IMG/VR virus record: IMGVR_UViG_2648501500_000009
Direction: 5' to 3' (one strand)
From: a virus
Lineage: Duplodnaviria; Heunggongvirae; Uroviricota; Caudoviricetes
Length of the DNA stretch: 18,660 nt
Positions 15,476 through 18,399 of the stretch are shown here, piece after piece; position 1 is the stretch's first letter; each line of letters begins with the position of its first letter. The notes beneath the pieces are model-generated. The model saw nothing but the letters and a program-made list of their open reading frames with translations. It searched no databases and was not told the DNA's origin. The position numbers were made by a program, and so were the translations under genes.

Positions 15476-15808
15476 TCAGGGTGCAGAAGGACTAAAGATA
15501 AACGTTTTCTTCACGCCTTTACACGGCCTGTCCTTCTCAAATCGCCATTTTGCCATCGCCTTTACAACCTGCTCATCAAACAGATGGTGCGGCTCTGAAC
15601 GAATAAACTCAATTCGGGTGACAGTACCATCAGCACCAATATCAAACCTCACATCAACCCGTCCCTTTATATAATTTGCCGCTGCATAGGCCGGATATTG
15701 TGGTAATGCCTTAACCAACTGTCGGGGCATATCTGTTTTATGTTGCGTACAGCCCATAACCAGAGAAGACAACAAAATAATTAACGGAAGATTTCTTTTC
15801 ATTTTCAT
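15476..15808 (-). CDS. Lipoprotein with TonB C-terminal-domain-like fold (moron candidate)
   Basis: Signal peptide plus lipobox-like LVMGC; YPAYAAANYIKGRVDVRFDIGADGTVTRIEFIRSEP...AMAKWRF matches the TonB-C pattern (YP..A...G.V.V.F.I...G.V). ATG starts at MKMKRNL preferred over the upstream GTG of the ORF track. Own promoter-like elements upstream; flanked by non-coding DNA. Confidence 0.65.
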   Translation of the reverse strand: MKMKRNLPLIILLSSLVMGCTQHKTDMPRQLVKALPQYPAYAAANYIKGRVDVRFDIGADGTVTRIEFIRSEPHHLFDEQVVKAMAKWRFEKDRPCKGVKKTFIFSPSAP

Positions 15809-16140
15809 TCCCCGCACAGATAAAAATAAGTCTTATTCTAACAATGCCGCCCTGTCGGTCATCAATCCTCTGCTTAATGGCAACGACAATTATCCGACTT
15901 AAATCACAAATCAGACACATGACATAACAGGGCTTGCGAGGTAACACATCGTCCTGTTTCTTCCACCATCGCACCGGACTGGCGACTATGAGGGGACAAC
16001 GCCGCGCTCCGTTAACGCGGTAAACCCCGGTGTGTATCGTTTTTGATTATCCCCGCACACTCGCGCAGAGGAGTCTCCCTGTCGGGCTGCGGTCTCTGTT
16101 AATGAGGGAATACAGCGACGATACGGCGCATCAACAAAAC

Positions 16141-16608
16141 TTATTTCAGGCACTGAGTACGGATATATTCCTGCGCCCCTTCCAGCTGCTTCTGCATTGT
16201 CATCAACCGTTCTCTGAGGATGAAATAATCCCGTTCAGCGGTGTCTGCCAGTCGGGGGCCGGTTGCATTATCCACGCCGGAGGTGCCGGTGGCTTCACGC
16301 ACGGTACCGGAGCAGGTGGCGTTGATCCGCAGGCGCTTACGACCAGCGGCAACATCAGCACGCAGAGTTTCATTTTCAGCTCTCGCATCGGCTAATTCCC
16401 TCGAGTATTTTGCATCGAGCGCAGCAACATCGCGCTGGCGCACCTGCATATCAGTAATGGTTGCGTTCGCCAGCTTCAGTTCACTGGCTTTTTTATCGCG
16501 CTGCGCTTTGTAAGTGATGGCGTTATCGCGGTAATGATTCAGCCCCAGACTAAGCGCACCACAGGCCACCAGCAGAGCAATGATGACCACACACAGAACG
16601 CGGTTCAT
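16141..16608 (-). CDS. Rz: Rz i-spanin (155 aa from MNRVLCVV)
   Basis: Near-colinear with lambda Rz ([16 protein letters not shown]...[15 protein letters not shown]...[30 protein letters not shown]); the ORF-track N-terminal extension is rejected. Confidence 0.9.
16203..16388 (-). CDS. Rz1: Rz1 o-spanin lipoprotein, embedded in the +1 frame of Rz
   Basis: [22 protein letters not shown]...[27 protein letters not shown] closely matches lambda Rz1 (lipobox plus Pro-rich periplasmic segment); entirely inside Rz. Confidence 0.85.
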
Positions 16609-16707
16609 TTCACCACCAACGGATTGCCCAGACCAGAACAGCAATGGCCACAATACGAATGGCAAATGCCATTGCCCGAATAAGTTCAGCACTCATCTTT
16701 TTAAAGT

Positions 16708-16830
16708 TCACGATTTCAGCGCAATGACCAGTTTTGCCAGCCCATATAGCATCGGAGACACAGCAATACCAACAGCCACCCACTTAATAGCAAAAGCCAG
16801 CGCTCTGCTGATGTCATCAGTCACTGTCAC
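16708..16830 (-). CDS. Candidate small hydrophobic peptide ORF-c (40 aa, GTG start overlapping ORF-b stop as GTGA)
   Basis: VTVTDDISRALAFAIKWVAVGIAVSPMLYGLAKLVIALKS; frame open from further upstream (90-codon ORF in track); real start uncertain. Confidence 0.25.
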   Translation of the reverse strand: MTVTDDISRALAFAIKWVAVGIAVSPMLYGLAKLVIALKS

Positions 16831-16958
16831 CCCAGCAGCCCCGACGAAGACAACATCACCCAGGCGAGGGACAGAAAAAGAGCAACCAGCATTAGTGAAA
16901 ATGAAATACCGACAATCACACAGAGGACCTTTGCCGGCGTTATGAGTTTGTCTGACAT
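16827..16958 (-). CDS. Candidate small membrane peptide ORF-b (43 aa)
   Basis: MSDKLITPAKVLCVIVGISFSLMLVALFLSLAWVMLSSSGLLG; ATG 2 nt after the ORF-a stop (TAGctATG); one predicted TM helix; below the 60-aa cutoff of the ORF track. Confidence 0.35.
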   Translation of the reverse strand: MSDKLITPAKVLCVIVGISFSLMLVALFLSLAWVMLSSSGLLG

Positions 16959-16960
16959 AG

Positions 16961-17056
16961 CTACCCCTTAATTGCCACAATTAACTGGGATACTACCCAT
17001 AAAAAAGGGATGCTCCAGACCAGCAAAAATTTCCAGTTTGGTAATTGACTAATCAT
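16961..17056 (-). CDS. Candidate small membrane peptide ORF-a (31 aa)
   Basis: MISQLPNWKFLLVWSIPFLWVVSQLIVAIKG; ATG preceded by GGGAG 9 nt upstream; the longer GTG-initiated ORF in the track runs through the terminator hairpin and is rejected. Confidence 0.3.
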   Translation of the reverse strand: MISQLPNWKFLLVWSIPFLWVVSQLIVAIKG

Positions 17057-17121
17057 GAGTCGCAACTCCCTAATCAGTTTGCTAAAATCAATCAAGGCAG
17101 CCTCCCATAGCTTACTGCCAT

Positions 17122-17174
17122 AAAAACAAAACCCCGCTTGCTGCCAACAAACGGGGTTTTTACTTTTATTCACT
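17122..17174. terminator. Bidirectional intrinsic-terminator-like hairpin just downstream of the endolysin gene
   Basis: ACCCCGCTTG-ctgcca-CAAACGGGGT (9-bp stem, one mismatch) flanked by an A run on the left and TTTTTACTTTTATT on the right, so a U-tract follows the stem on either strand. Confidence 0.6.
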
Positions 17175-17250
17175 TACGTTTCGCCAGTTCGCAGGATTTC
17201 GTGTTATCCGCCCGCGTGGCCATGCCTTATTTTTCAGCAAAATATTCTGC

Positions 17251-17784
17251 TTATCTGTCGATACCCCAGCACGCCAGCGCGCTCTCCTGGTCACGACGGG
17301 ATACCTGACCGTAGCAGTTGTTTGAACGAATACGGCAGTCTCTGCCACCGTCCTTAATCCACCAGCGAATCGCCTCACACGCTCCCCTGCGATCACCTGC
17401 ATTAATTCGTCTGTAAAACGTCGACGGGAAACACTTACCGGGACCAATGTTGTACGGACAGAATGACGCGATCCCCGCTTTCTGGGGTTCGGTCAGTGGC
17501 ACTTTGATGTTTTTCTCCACCCATGCCAGCGCCTTATCACGTTCAATGGCGTTAACCTGGTCGCATTTTTCCTTCGACAACTTCATGCCCGGGAGGACAG
17601 GCTTACCATCCACCCGGGTGGCACCGCGACAGATGGTCCAGATACCCGCGCCATCACGGTATGCCGTGGTGTGGTTACCTTCCTTTTCATCCAGAAACTG
17701 GTCGAGGATTTCAGGCGCAGGCGCACCTGCGGCAATCAGCGCCAGAACGGCAGCCGACAGGCCGTATTTGATTTTTGCGTTCAT
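17251..17784 (-). CDS. R: SAR endolysin, phage-21 R-type lysozyme (GH24 / T4-lysozyme fold), 177 aa
   Basis: N-terminal Gly/Ala-rich weakly hydrophobic segment (YGLSAAVLALIAAGAPAPEIL) typical of signal-anchor-release domains; catalytic E-x8-D-x5-T triad (EGNHTTAYRDGAGIWT); C-terminal region similar to R21 as recalled. Confidence 0.85.
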   Translation of the reverse strand: MNAKIKYGLSAAVLALIAAGAPAPEILDQFLDEKEGNHTTAYRDGAGIWTICRGATRVDGKPVLPGMKLSKEKCDQVNAIERDKALAWVEKNIKVPLTEPQKAGIASFCPYNIGPGKCFPSTFYRRINAGDRRGACEAIRWWIKDGGRDCRIRSNNCYGQVSRRDQESALACWGIDR

Positions 17785-17834: not shown

Positions 17835-18182
17835 TCAGGCCAGCGGTGGAGTCTTCAGAGAACCAGTAATTATTCCCGGTAGTTTTCCTCTGTAGGTTAT
17901 CAACACATCCTGCGCCTCTAAAATGATGGGCCGCTTTTCCGGCAACGGACCATCCCCTTCACATAACCCGGCAGCAACATCCATGAAAAACTGCTTCGCC
18001 TGCTTTTTCGCCTCAGCTTCGTAAAACTCCAGCGTGGCACCTTCAGTACGGTCAAGACTAATCGCCACATATGGCAACAACAGTGACGGATACCCACCAA
18101 TTTCCAGTGCCACAGTAACAGTAATCTTATCCGGGTAATTATTTATCCCTTTAACAACCAGTTCGTATTTTTTATTCATCAC
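17835..18182 (-). CDS. Hypothetical protein embedded between holin and endolysin (115 aa); positional analogue of ydfR-type genes in E. coli prophage lysis cassettes
   Basis: ATG 2 nt downstream of the holin stop; soluble-looking, acidic; no family recognised with confidence. Confidence 0.6.
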   Translation of the reverse strand: MMNKKYELVVKGINNYPDKITVTVALEIGGYPSLLLPYVAISLDRTEGATLEFYEAEAKKQAKQFFMDVAAGLCEGDGPLPEKRPIILEAQDVLITYRGKLPGIITGSLKTPPLA

Positions 18183-18183
18183 T

Positions 18184-18399
18184 TTACTCTCCCCGCGCCG
18201 CCTTACGCCGGTCCTCTCTGATTTTGAAATACAGGTTAGTCAGATACGTCAGCAGGCCAAACAGCAGACTCCCCAGCACACCTATCGCCACCCACTGGGA
18301 CGGAGAGACTTTGTCCAGCAGCTGCAGTAACCAGTATCCCGTCCCCACCGCTGACGTGGTGTATGACACACCCGTTGTGATTTTTTCCATCTGGTACAT
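18184..18399 (-). CDS. S: Pinholin, phage 21 S-type, 71 aa with dual-start motif (MYQMEK)
   Basis: [71 protein letters not shown] is colinear with S21 (two TM domains, basic C-terminus, Met1/Met4 starts). The 35-codon upstream extension in the ORF track is rejected. Confidence 0.85.

What the first reader, a model, noticed from the sequence alone, without database searches (positions are those of the whole stretch)
16708..17056. Cassette of two or three tandem tiny hydrophobic ORFs inserted between SAR endolysin and Rz/Rz1
In phage 21 and lambda the endolysin gene is followed directly by Rz/Rz1. Here about 640 bp intervene, holding a bidirectional terminator hairpin and then closely packed small ORFs on the late strand: ORF-a (31 aa), ORF-b (43 aa, ATG 2 nt after the ORF-a stop) and possibly ORF-c (40 aa, GTG overlapping the ORF-b stop as GTGA). 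Each is dominated by a single hydrophobic helix-length stretch. Possible roles are lysis-timing regulators (antiholin-like), small membrane toxins or a superinfection-exclusion module, or alternatively one frameshifted, decayed membrane-protein gene. I do not recognise these peptides as any named family.
Basis: partly seen in the sequence, partly recalled or inferred. Interest (0 to 1): 0.72.

Follow-up and report, generated by a model that had tools for sequence, protein, structure and literature searches.

The report
Tiny membrane-peptide genes before phage spanin
Between the cell-wall-cutting enzyme gene and the outer-membrane-disrupting (spanin) genes of this E. coli prophage sit four real, conserved but uncharacterised micro-genes, each coding for one membrane-spanning helix; they are shuffled like cassettes among related prophages and are common in databases as 'hypothetical proteins', so the finding is genuine but only moderately new.

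Summary
The 642 bp between the SAR endolysin (17251-17784, minus strand) and Rz (16141-16608) hold a conserved terminator-type hairpin, a leader with a strong Shine-Dalgarno site, and four tightly chained ORFs:
- a: 44 aa from TTG 17095, not 31 aa.
- b: 43 aa.
- c': 38-40 aa.

Each has one helix-length hydrophobic stretch. They belong to three families that PHROGs lists as 'unknown function'. None matches Pfam, NCBIfam, PADLOC or PDB.

They are not one decayed gene. Family c/d shows strong purifying selection (dN/dS 0.14), and a and b show weaker selection. However, c' is a 5'-truncated copy of a 60-aa gene.

In 82 related loci the R-Rz interval has eight architectures built from these same modules, and each holds at least one such ORF directly before Rz. 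Family a travels with its hairpin and leader across Enterobacterales and into Pseudomonas phages. It usually lies between unrelated endolysins and spanins, and sometimes in tail modules.

Function is untested. My best guess is late-expressed accessory inner-membrane peptides that tune lysis. A moron or exclusion role is nearly as likely.

The parts
17128..17160 (-). Terminator-type hairpin (AAAACCCCG...CGGGGTTTT plus T-run), symmetric so it could act in both directions. It is the first element of the module.
   Evidence: 15 pairs, 6 GC. (-33.3 kcal/mol, z -4.1); conserved in 8 loci from 5 genera, with 4 pairs showing compensatory changes; it stays with the a-family ORF behind unrelated upstream genes.
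17096..17127 (-). Leader with Shine-Dalgarno GGGAGG (17101-17106), 5 nt before the TTG of ORF-a.
   Evidence: No sigma-70-like promoter was found on the late strand between the hairpin and Rz.
16961..17095 (-). ORF-a, 44 aa from TTG (31 aa if started at ATG 17056): MIDFSKLIRELRLMISQLPNWKFLLVWSIPFLWVVSQLIVAIKG. It has an N-terminal amphipathic basic segment and one TM helix. Family phrog_6632.
   Evidence: E 1.3e-12; 44-51-aa homologues in Escherichia, Salmonella, Enterobacter, Citrobacter, Klebsiella, Providencia and Pseudomonas phage; dN/dS 0.37 overall and 0.23 in the TM part. KD 2.19.
16827..16958 (-). ORF-b, 43 aa: MSDKLITPAKVLCVIVGISFSLMLVALFLSLAWVMLSSSGLLG. One TM helix. Family phrog_4906. 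Found in Escherichia only.
   Evidence: E 4.5e-21. PGAP WP_001280935.1.; dN/dS 0.26 in the N-half and 0.63 in the C-half, with fixed length in 23 alleles; frameshift allele in 8 loci.
16708..16824 (-). ORF-c', 38 aa from the second GTG (40 aa from GTG 16830, which overlaps the ORF-b stop; PGAP aa from a TTG inside b). It is the C-terminal 38 residues, including the TM helix, of a 60-aa protein. Families phrog_1115/3246/4493.
   Evidence: all 36 truncated copies have GTG where all 88 full-length copies have GTA; variable sites 16/7/33 at codon positions 1/2/3, dN/dS 0.14 in this frame against 1.13 and 7.63 in the other two.
16610..16696 (-). ORF-d, 28 aa: [28 protein letters not shown]. It is a paralogue of c. 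Its stop lies 1 nt before the Rz ATG.
   Evidence: phrog_4493, E 3.8e-6; PGAP WP_032140280.1; natural c/d hybrids P0113 and P0117; dN/dS 0.38 from 5 variants.
17251..17784 (-). Upstream flank: SAR-type endolysin R (177 aa, rrrQ-like).
   Evidence: (PF00959).
16141..16608 (-). Downstream flank: i-spanin Rz, with the embedded o-spanin Rz1 at 16203-16388.
   Evidence: (PF03245; PF06085).

Best explanation
The interval is a recombination-built array of four independently mobile micro-genes from three families: a, b and c/d. Each encodes a single-pass inner-membrane peptide, probably N-in, with almost no periplasmic part. The array sits in a 'slot' defined by a conserved hairpin plus leader after the endolysin gene and by the start of the i-spanin gene.

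Shown:
- The ORFs are conserved.
- Family c/d is under strong purifying selection, and families a and b under weaker selection.
- The modules occur alone and in different orders in related prophages.
- Every sampled cassette of this type keeps at least one of them directly in front of Rz.
- c' is a truncated copy that has acquired a GTG start.

Inferred:
- No promoter-like site follows the hairpin on the late strand, and the ORFs are chained with gaps of 2, -4/+2, 11 and 1 nt into Rz. I therefore expect them to be made only from the Q-antiterminated late transcript, together with holin, endolysin and spanin.
- Once in the inner membrane they would act as non-essential accessory modulators of the membrane steps of lysis: the timing or efficiency of pinholin triggering, or i-spanin function.
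For: Reality and conservation:
- PHROG matches.
- PGAP annotates b, c and d in the identical E. coli CAU16175 prophage.
- The full cassette is present in 587 of 5426 complete E. coli genomes.
- Frame-specific selection.

Modularity:
- Eight architectures in 82 loci, all with at least one micro-TM ORF abutting Rz.

Link to lysis:
- Family a lies between endolysin and i-spanin with three unrelated endolysin types (SAR lysozyme, soluble GH19, CHAP) and three unrelated i-spanins.
- Family c lies before Rz with both pinholin/lysozyme and lambda-S-type holin/GH19 cassettes.
- No late-strand promoter was found after the hairpin.
- The ORFs are spaced tightly enough for translational coupling.

Precedents for small TM accessory lysis proteins:
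- Lcc6 of LambdaSo (bioRxiv 10.1101/2024.01.23.576932).
- Mu gp25 releasin (PMC9239132).
- P1 LydD (PMC9025707).
- P2 LysA, which lies between endolysin K and spanin lysB (recalled from memory).
Against: - There are no functional data of any kind.
- Cassettes without such ORFs exist: K-12 Qin has rrrQ overlapping rzpQ, and lambda from general knowledge. The peptides therefore cannot be core lysis proteins.
- Family a also sits in baseplate or tail modules of SEN34-like and Pseudomonas phages and near TA or defence genes.
- Family c also occurs after tail-fibre genes and in prophage remnants.
- Frameshifted b alleles, the truncated c' and an in-frame stop in the N-terminal extension of some a copies show dispensability.
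- The partners are neither SAR-specific nor spanin-family-specific, so no particular target is indicated.
Confidence: 0.4

Rival explanations
1. These are morons: small cargo genes unrelated to lysis that have lodged at a permissive module junction. The peptides would act on host or incoming-phage membrane functions, for example superinfection exclusion of DNA entry as HK97 gp15 does, or modulation of a host membrane protein.
For: - They lie between genes that are adjacent or overlapping in relatives.
- GC is lower (41-50%) than in R and Rz (51-58%).
- The same hairpin-leader-ORF unit is found in tail or baseplate modules and other sites in other phages.
- Turnover, shuffling, tandem paralogues and pseudogenised alleles are frequent, as is typical of accessory or conflict genes.
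Against: - No promoter-like site lies between the hairpin and the ORFs, and the hairpin should block non-antiterminated transcription. Lysogen expression, which exclusion needs, is therefore unsupported.
- No PADLOC match.
- The slot before Rz is occupied in every sampled cassette of this type, which is unexpected for dispensable cargo.
Confidence: 0.3
2. The act of translating the ORFs matters more than the peptides. They would be coupling ORFs that carry ribosomes from the hairpin and leader into Rz. c' and d would be recombination relics kept only because they keep the Rz ribosome-binding site open.
For: - The last ORF always ends 1-10 nt from the Rz ATG, and the codons for ...RWW* supply GGTGGTGA just before it.
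- c' and d are N-terminally truncated forms.
- b tolerates a variable C-half and frameshifts.
Against: - Amino-acid-level purifying selection on the c core (dN/dS 0.14) and on the a TM part (0.23).
- The RWW end and the whole a protein are conserved where no Rz abuts, in Enterobacter, Klebsiella and Pseudomonas.
- Short natural forms such as P0113 recur on many contigs.
Confidence: 0.12
3. The peptides are small membrane-depolarising toxins of the type I toxin-antitoxin kind. An antisense RNA would start inside or after ORF-a and end at the bidirectional hairpin.
For: - Size and hydrophobicity resemble type I toxins.
- The hairpin is symmetric.
- Promoter-like antisense sites occur at window 16952-16981 and at roughly comparable places in L012, L178, L188 and L190.
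Against: - The hits are weak (9 of 12 matches) and at about the chance rate.
- They are absent in L180 and L181, and their positions are not conserved.
- No Pfam type I toxin family matches at E <= 1. No Rfam hit reaches any family's gathering score, and the only sub-threshold match in the region is a chance-level one at the hairpin (E 0.78).
Confidence: 0.07
4. The ORFs are fragments of a single decayed, frameshifted membrane-protein gene, or chance ORFs in T-rich DNA.
For: - An alternative-frame 33-aa hydrophobic ORF exists in the c region.
- A 90-aa ORF spans b and c in another frame and has its own PHROG (phrog_3246).
- Rare b-c fusions exist (P0091).
Against: - The families occur separately and in different orders.
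- The other frames show dN/dS of 0.55 or more, mostly near or above 1.
- The alternative-frame ORF is broken in L066.
- No relative restores one long gene.
Confidence: 0.03

Closest known systems
PHROG families phrog_6632 (a), phrog_4906 (b), phrog_1115/phrog_4493/phrog_3246 (c, d); RefSeq WP_001280935.1, WP_042004856.1, WP_032140280.1
   Same: Direct sequence membership. The identical proteins are annotated in E. coli CAU16175.
   Different: These families carry no function ('unknown function' or 'hypothetical protein'). phrog_3246 (90 aa) appears to be built on the wrong-frame ORF that spans b and c.
Phage P2 LysA (membrane protein gene between endolysin K and spanin genes lysB/lysC; a non-essential lysis-timing factor). 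Recalled from memory.
   Same: Same position in the cassette (endolysin, membrane protein, then i-spanin). Non-essential, membrane-embedded and late-expressed.
   Different: As I recall, LysA is about 140 aa with several TM segments. No PHROG annotated as holin/anti-holin and no Pfam family matched.
Lcc6 of Shewanella phage LambdaSo (65-aa single-TM protein required for pinholin/SAR-endolysin lysis)
   Same: A tiny single-pass inner-membrane protein that works with a pinholin/SAR-endolysin/Rz-Rz1 system.
   Different: Lcc6 is encoded far from the lysis cassette, has a 43-aa cytoplasmic tail after an N-terminal TM, and is essential. I had no Lcc6 sequence, so homology was not tested.
Mu gp25 'releasin' (DUF2730) and P1 LydD pinholin
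   Same: Extra small membrane proteins, encoded near or in the same operon as a SAR endolysin, that control its release (PMC9239132, PMC9025707).
   Different: No DUF2730 or holin family match. Families a and c also accompany soluble GH19 endolysins, so they are not SAR-specific.
Morons such as HK97 gp15 (a small inner-membrane exclusion protein inserted in a late operon). Recalled from memory.
   Same: Extra DNA between genes that are adjacent in relatives, atypical composition, a small membrane protein, and the same unit seen at different late-operon sites in different phages.
   Different: Classical morons carry their own promoter upstream and terminator downstream, and are expressed in the lysogen. 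Here the hairpin is upstream and no promoter was found.

Membership tests
phrog_6632 (ORF-a) | Significant match to the family HMM over most of its length | tested here: met
   E 1.3e-12 with profile positions 2-43 of 45 for the extended frame, and 6e-5 for the 31-aa form. Searches give 44-51-aa homologues.
phrog_4906 (ORF-b) | Significant match to the family HMM | tested here: met
   E 4.5e-21, profile positions 7-49 of 49.
phrog_1115 / phrog_4493 (ORF-c', ORF-d) | Significant match to the family HMM over its full length | tested here: inconclusive
   c' matches only the C-terminal 38 positions (30-67 of 67; E 6e-25), and d matches positions 24-54 of 56 (E 4e-6). Both lack the N-terminal KYKRILLRL...MKNG part.
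Holins / antiholins (Pfam and PHROG lysis families) | Sequence membership in a holin or antiholin family | tested here: not met
   no holin or anti-holin family at E <= 1 for a, b, c or d. The true holin at 18184-18399 hits PF04971.
Holins / antiholins | At least one TM domain, late expression and location in the lysis cassette | tested here: met
   (KD 1.9-2.9). (position).
Holins / antiholins | Controls lysis timing, or gives lethal membrane permeabilisation | not testable with these tools
   Needs deletion or induction experiments.
Mu-type releasin (DUF2730) | DUF2730 domain | tested here: not met
   no Pfam match.
Spanins (i-, o-, u-) | Periplasmic coiled-coil domain after the TM (i-spanin), or a lipobox signal (o- and u-spanin) | tested here: not met
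   The peptides end 2-14 residues after the 19-residue window of highest hydrophobicity and have no lipobox. Spanin PHROGs hit only Rz and Rz1.
Type I toxin-antitoxin toxins (Hok, Ldr, TisB, Ibs, ShoB and similar) | Sequence family membership | tested here: not met
   no Pfam match at E <= 1.
Type I toxin-antitoxin toxins | Overlapping antisense RNA gene with its own promoter | tested here: inconclusive
   Weak antisense promoter-like hits at non-conserved positions, at about the chance rate. No Rfam family.
Moron (Hendrix-type extra gene) | Lies between genes that are adjacent in related phages | tested here: met
   rrrQ and rzpQ overlap in Qin. For lambda, R/Rz adjacency is from general knowledge.
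Moron | Own promoter and downstream terminator; expressed from the prophage | tested here: inconclusive
   no late-strand promoter-like site after the hairpin. The hairpin is upstream, not downstream. Expression cannot be tested here.
Moron | Composition differs from the neighbouring genes | tested here: met
   GC 0.41-0.50 against 0.51-0.58 in R and Rz.
Known anti-phage defence / exclusion proteins (PADLOC) | Match to a defence-system model | tested here: not met
   no family at E <= 1.
Lcc6-like lysis factor | Sequence similarity to LambdaSo Lcc6 (SO_4795) | not tested
Only the description was read.

The most novel reading that the evidence does not exclude
The hairpin, leader and interchangeable micro-TM ORF form a portable unit that fills an obligatory slot directly upstream of the i-spanin gene in many Enterobacterales lysis cassettes. 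The peptides would then be an unrecognised fourth class of lysis protein: a co-factor or brake for the holin or the i-spanin in the inner membrane, comparable to Lcc6. The nucleotide-level conservation of the hairpin, the leader and the first ~40 nt of the a-family ORF would reflect an RNA-level control element rather than only a recombination linker.
Probability: 0.2. Interest if true: 0.75.

Novelty: new member of a known kind. Interest (0 to 1): 0.42.

Why it matters
Lysis cassettes of lambdoid and Shiga-toxin phages are usually drawn as S-R-Rz/Rz1. In fact the R-Rz junction of a very common E. coli cassette type always carries one to four conserved single-helix peptides. About 11% of complete E. 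coli genomes carry exactly this array, and many more carry relatives, including the classical Stx1 phage H-19B, where the ORF is unannotated.

If the peptides tune lysis timing, they would affect burst size and, in Stx phages, the timing of toxin release. If they are exclusion or host-targeting morons, they add to the small-protein repertoire of prophages.

The work also corrects annotation: the ORF-a start, the c' truncation, and the wrong-frame 90-aa calls behind phrog_3246. It also points to an unexplained conserved hairpin-leader unit shared between Enterobacterales and Pseudomonas phages.

Tried and rejected
- Pfam, NCBIfam, PADLOC and PDB sequence searches of a-d and of the family profiles found nothing.
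- Rfam on the whole window at gathering threshold found nothing. On 16500-17400 at E <= 1 it gave only a chance-level hit to a Brucella sRNA at the hairpin.
- A literature search for the peptide strings found no paper. Searches on lysis cassettes and Stx phages found no treatment of these ORFs. The DUF1327/YdfR search returned mostly unrelated melanoma papers.
- A genome-contig scan with the c/d profile returned no confirmed locus. The viral-contig scan with the same profile returned only near-identical copies.
- The type I toxin/antisense idea rests only on weak, non-conserved promoter-like hits.
- A SAR-endolysin-specific regulator is rejected, because families a and c also accompany soluble GH19 endolysins.
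- A single decayed gene is rejected.
- The remote a-family members P0273, P0279 and P0285 sit in contexts I could not interpret.
- Structure prediction was not run. A single helix would not discriminate between the hypotheses.
Full report
**1. What is in the window**

The late strand is the minus strand. Reading 5'->3' on it:

| Feature | Coordinates | Notes |
|---|---|---|
| Holin | 18184-18399 | S21-type class II, PF04971 |
| DUF1327/YdfR gene | 17835-18182 | |
| Endolysin R | 17251-17784 | 177-aa SAR-type lysozyme, PF00959 |
| Non-coding stretch | ~90 nt | conserved |
| Hairpin | 17128-17160 | 15 pairs, T-run, symmetric |
| Leader | 17096-17127 | GGGAGG at 17101-17106 |
| ORF-a | 16961-17095 | |
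| ORF-b | 16827-16958 | |
| ORF-c' | 16708-16824/16830 | |
| ORF-d | 16610-16696 | |
| Rz | 16141-16608 | PF03245, with embedded Rz1 at 16203-16388 (PF06085) |

The spacers between the small ORFs are:
- 2 nt between a and b.
- An overlap (GTGA) or a 2-nt spacer between b and c', depending on which GTG is the c' start.
- 11 nt between c' and d.
- 1 nt between d and Rz.

The window is 100% identical to a prophage of E. coli CAU16175. There PGAP annotates b, a 51-aa version of c, and d as hypothetical proteins, and does not annotate a.

**2. Check of the observation**

Each peptide has a 19-residue Kyte-Doolittle window between 1.9 and 2.9, above the usual 1.6 threshold.

In 2000 dinucleotide-preserving shuffles of the 519 nt between the hairpin and Rz, hydrophobic same-strand ORFs cover as much sequence in 11 shuffles and are as numerous in 21.

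Three corrections follow from comparison with relatives; they are detailed in sections 3 and 5:
- ORF-a is longer than called.
- ORF-c is a truncated copy of a 60-aa gene.
- There is a fourth ORF, d.

**3. Three families, not one decayed gene**

Sequence matches. PHROG HMMs match a (phrog_6632), b (phrog_4906) and c and d (phrog_1115, 4493, 3246). All are annotated 'unknown function'. Pfam, NCBIfam, PADLOC and PDB give nothing.

Family c/d:
- In other E. coli and Salmonella prophages it is a 55-66-aa protein. It has a variable basic N-terminus (MEKYKRILLRLTMKNGLELKAP), then the core VTDDISRALAFAIKWVAVGIAVSPMLYGLAKLVIALKS.
- The window's c' keeps only that core.
- d ([28 protein letters not shown]) is a shorter paralogue.
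- Natural c/d hybrids exist (P0113, P0117).
- Across 22 DNA variants of the core, variable sites fall 16/7/33 on codon positions 1/2/3. Pooled dN/dS is 0.14 in the c frame, against 1.13 and 7.63 in the other two frames. By my arithmetic the chi-square against equal use of the three positions is about 18.7 (p ~1e-4).
- The alternative-frame 33-aa hydrophobic ORF and the 90-aa frame that spans b are therefore not the selected frames.

Family b:
- It is confined to Escherichia.
- Its N-half (SDKLITLAKILCVIVGISFSLMLVA) is nearly invariant, with dN/dS 0.26.
- Its C-half is variable (dN/dS 0.63) but always hydrophobic.
- Length is fixed in 23 alleles.
- Eight loci carry a frameshift allele.

Family a:
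- It has 44-51-aa members in Escherichia, Salmonella, Enterobacter, Citrobacter, Klebsiella, Providencia and Pseudomonas phages.
- The shared pattern is x-DFSKLIRE-L/I-R-x-M-x-E-K-L-P-x-W-K/R-F, then a TM helix, often ending in RWW.
- Overall dN/dS is 0.37, and 0.23 in the TM part.
- These homologues start at GTG, TTG or ATG at the position of the window's TTG 17095, which follows GGGAGG by 5 nt. The 44-aa form is therefore the likely product.
- A subset of E. coli copies has an in-frame stop in the N-terminal extension and can only use the internal ATG.

**4. The R-Rz interval is a shuffling site**

I fetched 80 IMG/VR loci by their Rz gene. Together with the loci already fetched, this gave 82 complete R-Rz intervals.

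| Interval length | Content | Loci |
|---|---|---|
| 303-304 bp | a-type ORF alone (MAEKLSTWKFILIW...IRWW) | 20 |
| 341-342 bp | d-like 37-aa ORF alone | 19 |
| 444 bp | c60 + d | 1 |
| 493-497 bp | c60 + b | 5 |
| 648 bp | a + b + c' + d, as in the window | 33 |
| ~1000 bp | ant + b (49-aa form) | 2 |
| 1203 bp | second ant type + a' + b | 1 |
| 1419 bp | second ant type + a' + b + c' + d | 1 |

Every interval starts with the same hairpin and ends with a micro-TM ORF a few nucleotides from the Rz ATG. None is empty. Two further E. coli genomes, checked because only the hairpin region had matched, also carry the a-type ORF.

The window's array looks like a join of an a'+b unit with a c60+d unit:
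- The junction lies immediately after the b stop.
- The first 22 codons of c60 are missing.
- The valine codon GTA, present in all 88 full-length copies, is GTG in all 36 truncated copies. This creates a start codon 5 nt after GGGG.
- That is one lineage, so it shows c' can be translated. It does not show that the change was selected.

The exact array is common: 587 of 5426 complete E. coli genomes have at least 80% of the 671-nt query, and 2082 have some part of it.

**5. Context in other genera**

Family a lies between endolysin and i-spanin in several unrelated combinations:
- Salmonella: a, then 1 nt, then PF03245 Rz.
- Enterobacter: soluble GH19 endolysin, then a, then a phrog_1026 i-spanin with a phrog_1275 o-spanin.
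- Providencia: CHAP-domain lysin, then a, then an ORF that looks like an i-spanin by eye (N-terminal hydrophobic stretch followed by a charged, helical-looking region); it had no PHROG match.
- Phage H-19B: R and Rz are annotated 297 nt apart, and the a-type ORF between them is unannotated.

Family c lies before Rz in Salmonella with either a class II holin plus lysozyme plus Ant, or a lambda-S-type holin plus soluble GH19 endolysin. The peptides are therefore not specific to SAR endolysins or to one spanin family.

Both families also occur outside lysis cassettes:
- Family a sits in the baseplate module of SEN34-like myoviruses (Klebsiella L181, SEN34).
- Family a sits in the tail region of Pseudomonas phage YMC11/02/R656, where a second tiny TM ORF follows it.
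- Family a sits near toxin-antitoxin or SIR2 genes in remote members.
- Family c sits after tail-fibre genes (L173), and as tandem paralogue pairs in Salmonella prophage remnants (L175, L176).

**6. The hairpin and leader travel with ORF-a**

In all these genera the a-family ORF is preceded by the same kind of hairpin, whatever gene lies upstream. About 35 nt of similar leader follow it (TTTCT.CACCT.GA..AGGCA.GGAGAA).

Four stem pairs show compensatory double changes.

Synonymous divergence in the first 19 codons of the ORF (pS 0.25) is much lower than in the TM part (0.65).

In E. coli the same hairpin and leader are also followed by c60 or the 37-aa d form in place of a.

I cannot explain this nucleotide-level conservation. 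Possible explanations are an RNA element, a recombination linker between modules, or a cryptic promoter. Rfam has no family for it.

**7. How it most likely works**

Shown:
- The genes are real and conserved, and encode single-helix hydrophobic peptides.
- They are modular.
- They sit in the late operon, chained into Rz.

Inferred:
- The consensus scan finds no promoter-like site on the late strand between the hairpin and Rz. Transcription should therefore come only from Q-antiterminated polymerase, at the same time as the lysis proteins.
- The charge distribution suggests an N-in orientation with a minimal periplasmic end.
- Given their position and the precedents (LambdaSo Lcc6, Mu gp25, P1 LydD; P2 LysA from memory), I rate 'non-essential inner-membrane modulators of lysis timing or efficiency' as the most likely function, at about 0.4.
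- The moron reading (exclusion or host targeting, unrelated to lysis) is close behind, at about 0.3. It rests on the non-lysis contexts, the lower GC and the high turnover.
- Translational-coupling relics rate about 0.12.
- Type I-like toxins rate about 0.07.
- A decayed gene or chance ORFs rate about 0.03.

**8. Novelty and verdict**

The ORFs are already in RefSeq and PHROGs as hypothetical proteins. No function and no literature were found. As a kind of thing, extra small membrane proteins in phage late or lysis operons are known.

What this analysis adds:
- The slot before Rz is always occupied in this cassette type.
- The same few modules are shuffled among prophages.
- c' is a truncated copy, and ORF-a is longer than called.
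- A hairpin-leader-ORF unit is shared between Enterobacterales and Pseudomonas phages.

I file it as a new member of a known kind, of moderate interest (0.42).

Caveats:
- The dN/dS values are pooled pairwise estimates on short, recombining, non-independent sequences.
- The promoter and terminator scans are consensus matches only.
- No expression or phenotype data were available.

Noticed in passing
window 17835-18182 (-): A 115-aa DUF1327/YdfR-family gene sits between the holin and the endolysin, as in K-12 Qin (essQ-ydfR-rrrQ). It is another uncharacterised insert in the lysis cassette (phrog_406, PF07041).
   Followed up: partly
window 18184-18399 (-): The S21-type holin has a dual-start-like N-terminus, [10 protein letters not shown] (Met1 and Met4). 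The extension carries no lysine, unlike the MKSM of S21 as I recall it. Whether the longer form can act as an antiholin is unclear.
   Followed up: no
window 15476-15817 (-): Downstream of Rz, where lambda has bor, lies a 113-aa protein with a lipoprotein-like signal (LSSLVMGC). PGAP names it 'TonB family protein'. It is probably a moron.
   Followed up: no
window 17128-17160 and 17050-17127; L178, L180, L181, L182, L188, L190: The hairpin, a ~35-nt leader and the first ~40 nt of the a-family ORF are conserved at nucleotide level across Enterobacterales and a Pseudomonas phage, behind unrelated upstream genes. Synonymous sites there are far less diverged than in the TM part. This is unexplained.
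   Followed up: partly
window 17096-17119 (-): In the window variant only, a second small stem (GGCAG...CUGCC) encloses the GGGAGG Shine-Dalgarno site of ORF-a in the predicted fold. It could damp initiation at the TTG.
   Followed up: no
window 16952-16981 (+): A promoter-like site lies antisense to the ORF-a/ORF-b boundary (CTGACA-18-CACAAT with TG) and points towards the bidirectional hairpin. Similar weak antisense hits occur in L012, L178, L188 and L190 but not in L180 or L181, and their positions are not conserved.
   Followed up: partly
window 16716-16817 (-) and 16708-16980 (-): A 33-aa hydrophobic ORF in another frame lies inside c', and a 90-aa ORF spans b and c. Neither frame shows purifying selection. 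phrog_3246 (90 aa) seems to be built from such wrong-frame gene calls. ON470597 labels the 70-aa over-extended ORF-a as a 'TPR_REGION domain-containing protein'.
   Followed up: yes
L188 2671-2787 (Pseudomonas phage YMC11/02/R656); L175 2356-2668 and L176 165-528 (Salmonella): Tandem pairs of tiny TM ORFs recur elsewhere. In the Pseudomonas phage an a-homologue is followed by a 38-aa hydrophobic ORF in a tail region. In Salmonella prophage remnants two c-family paralogues lie side by side.
   Followed up: partly
L189 1501-1635 (phage H-19B, AF034975.3 17551-17685): The classical Stx1 phage H-19B carries an unannotated 45-aa a-family ORF in the 297-bp gap between its annotated R and Rz genes.
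   Followed up: yes
window 15144-15344 (+) and 14737-15102 (-): A YlcI/YnfO (DUF3950) gene lies on the opposite strand, and an HNH endonuclease gene sits just upstream of the terminase small subunit gene. The HNH-terminase pairing is, as I recall, typical of HK97-like cos packaging modules.
   Followed up: no
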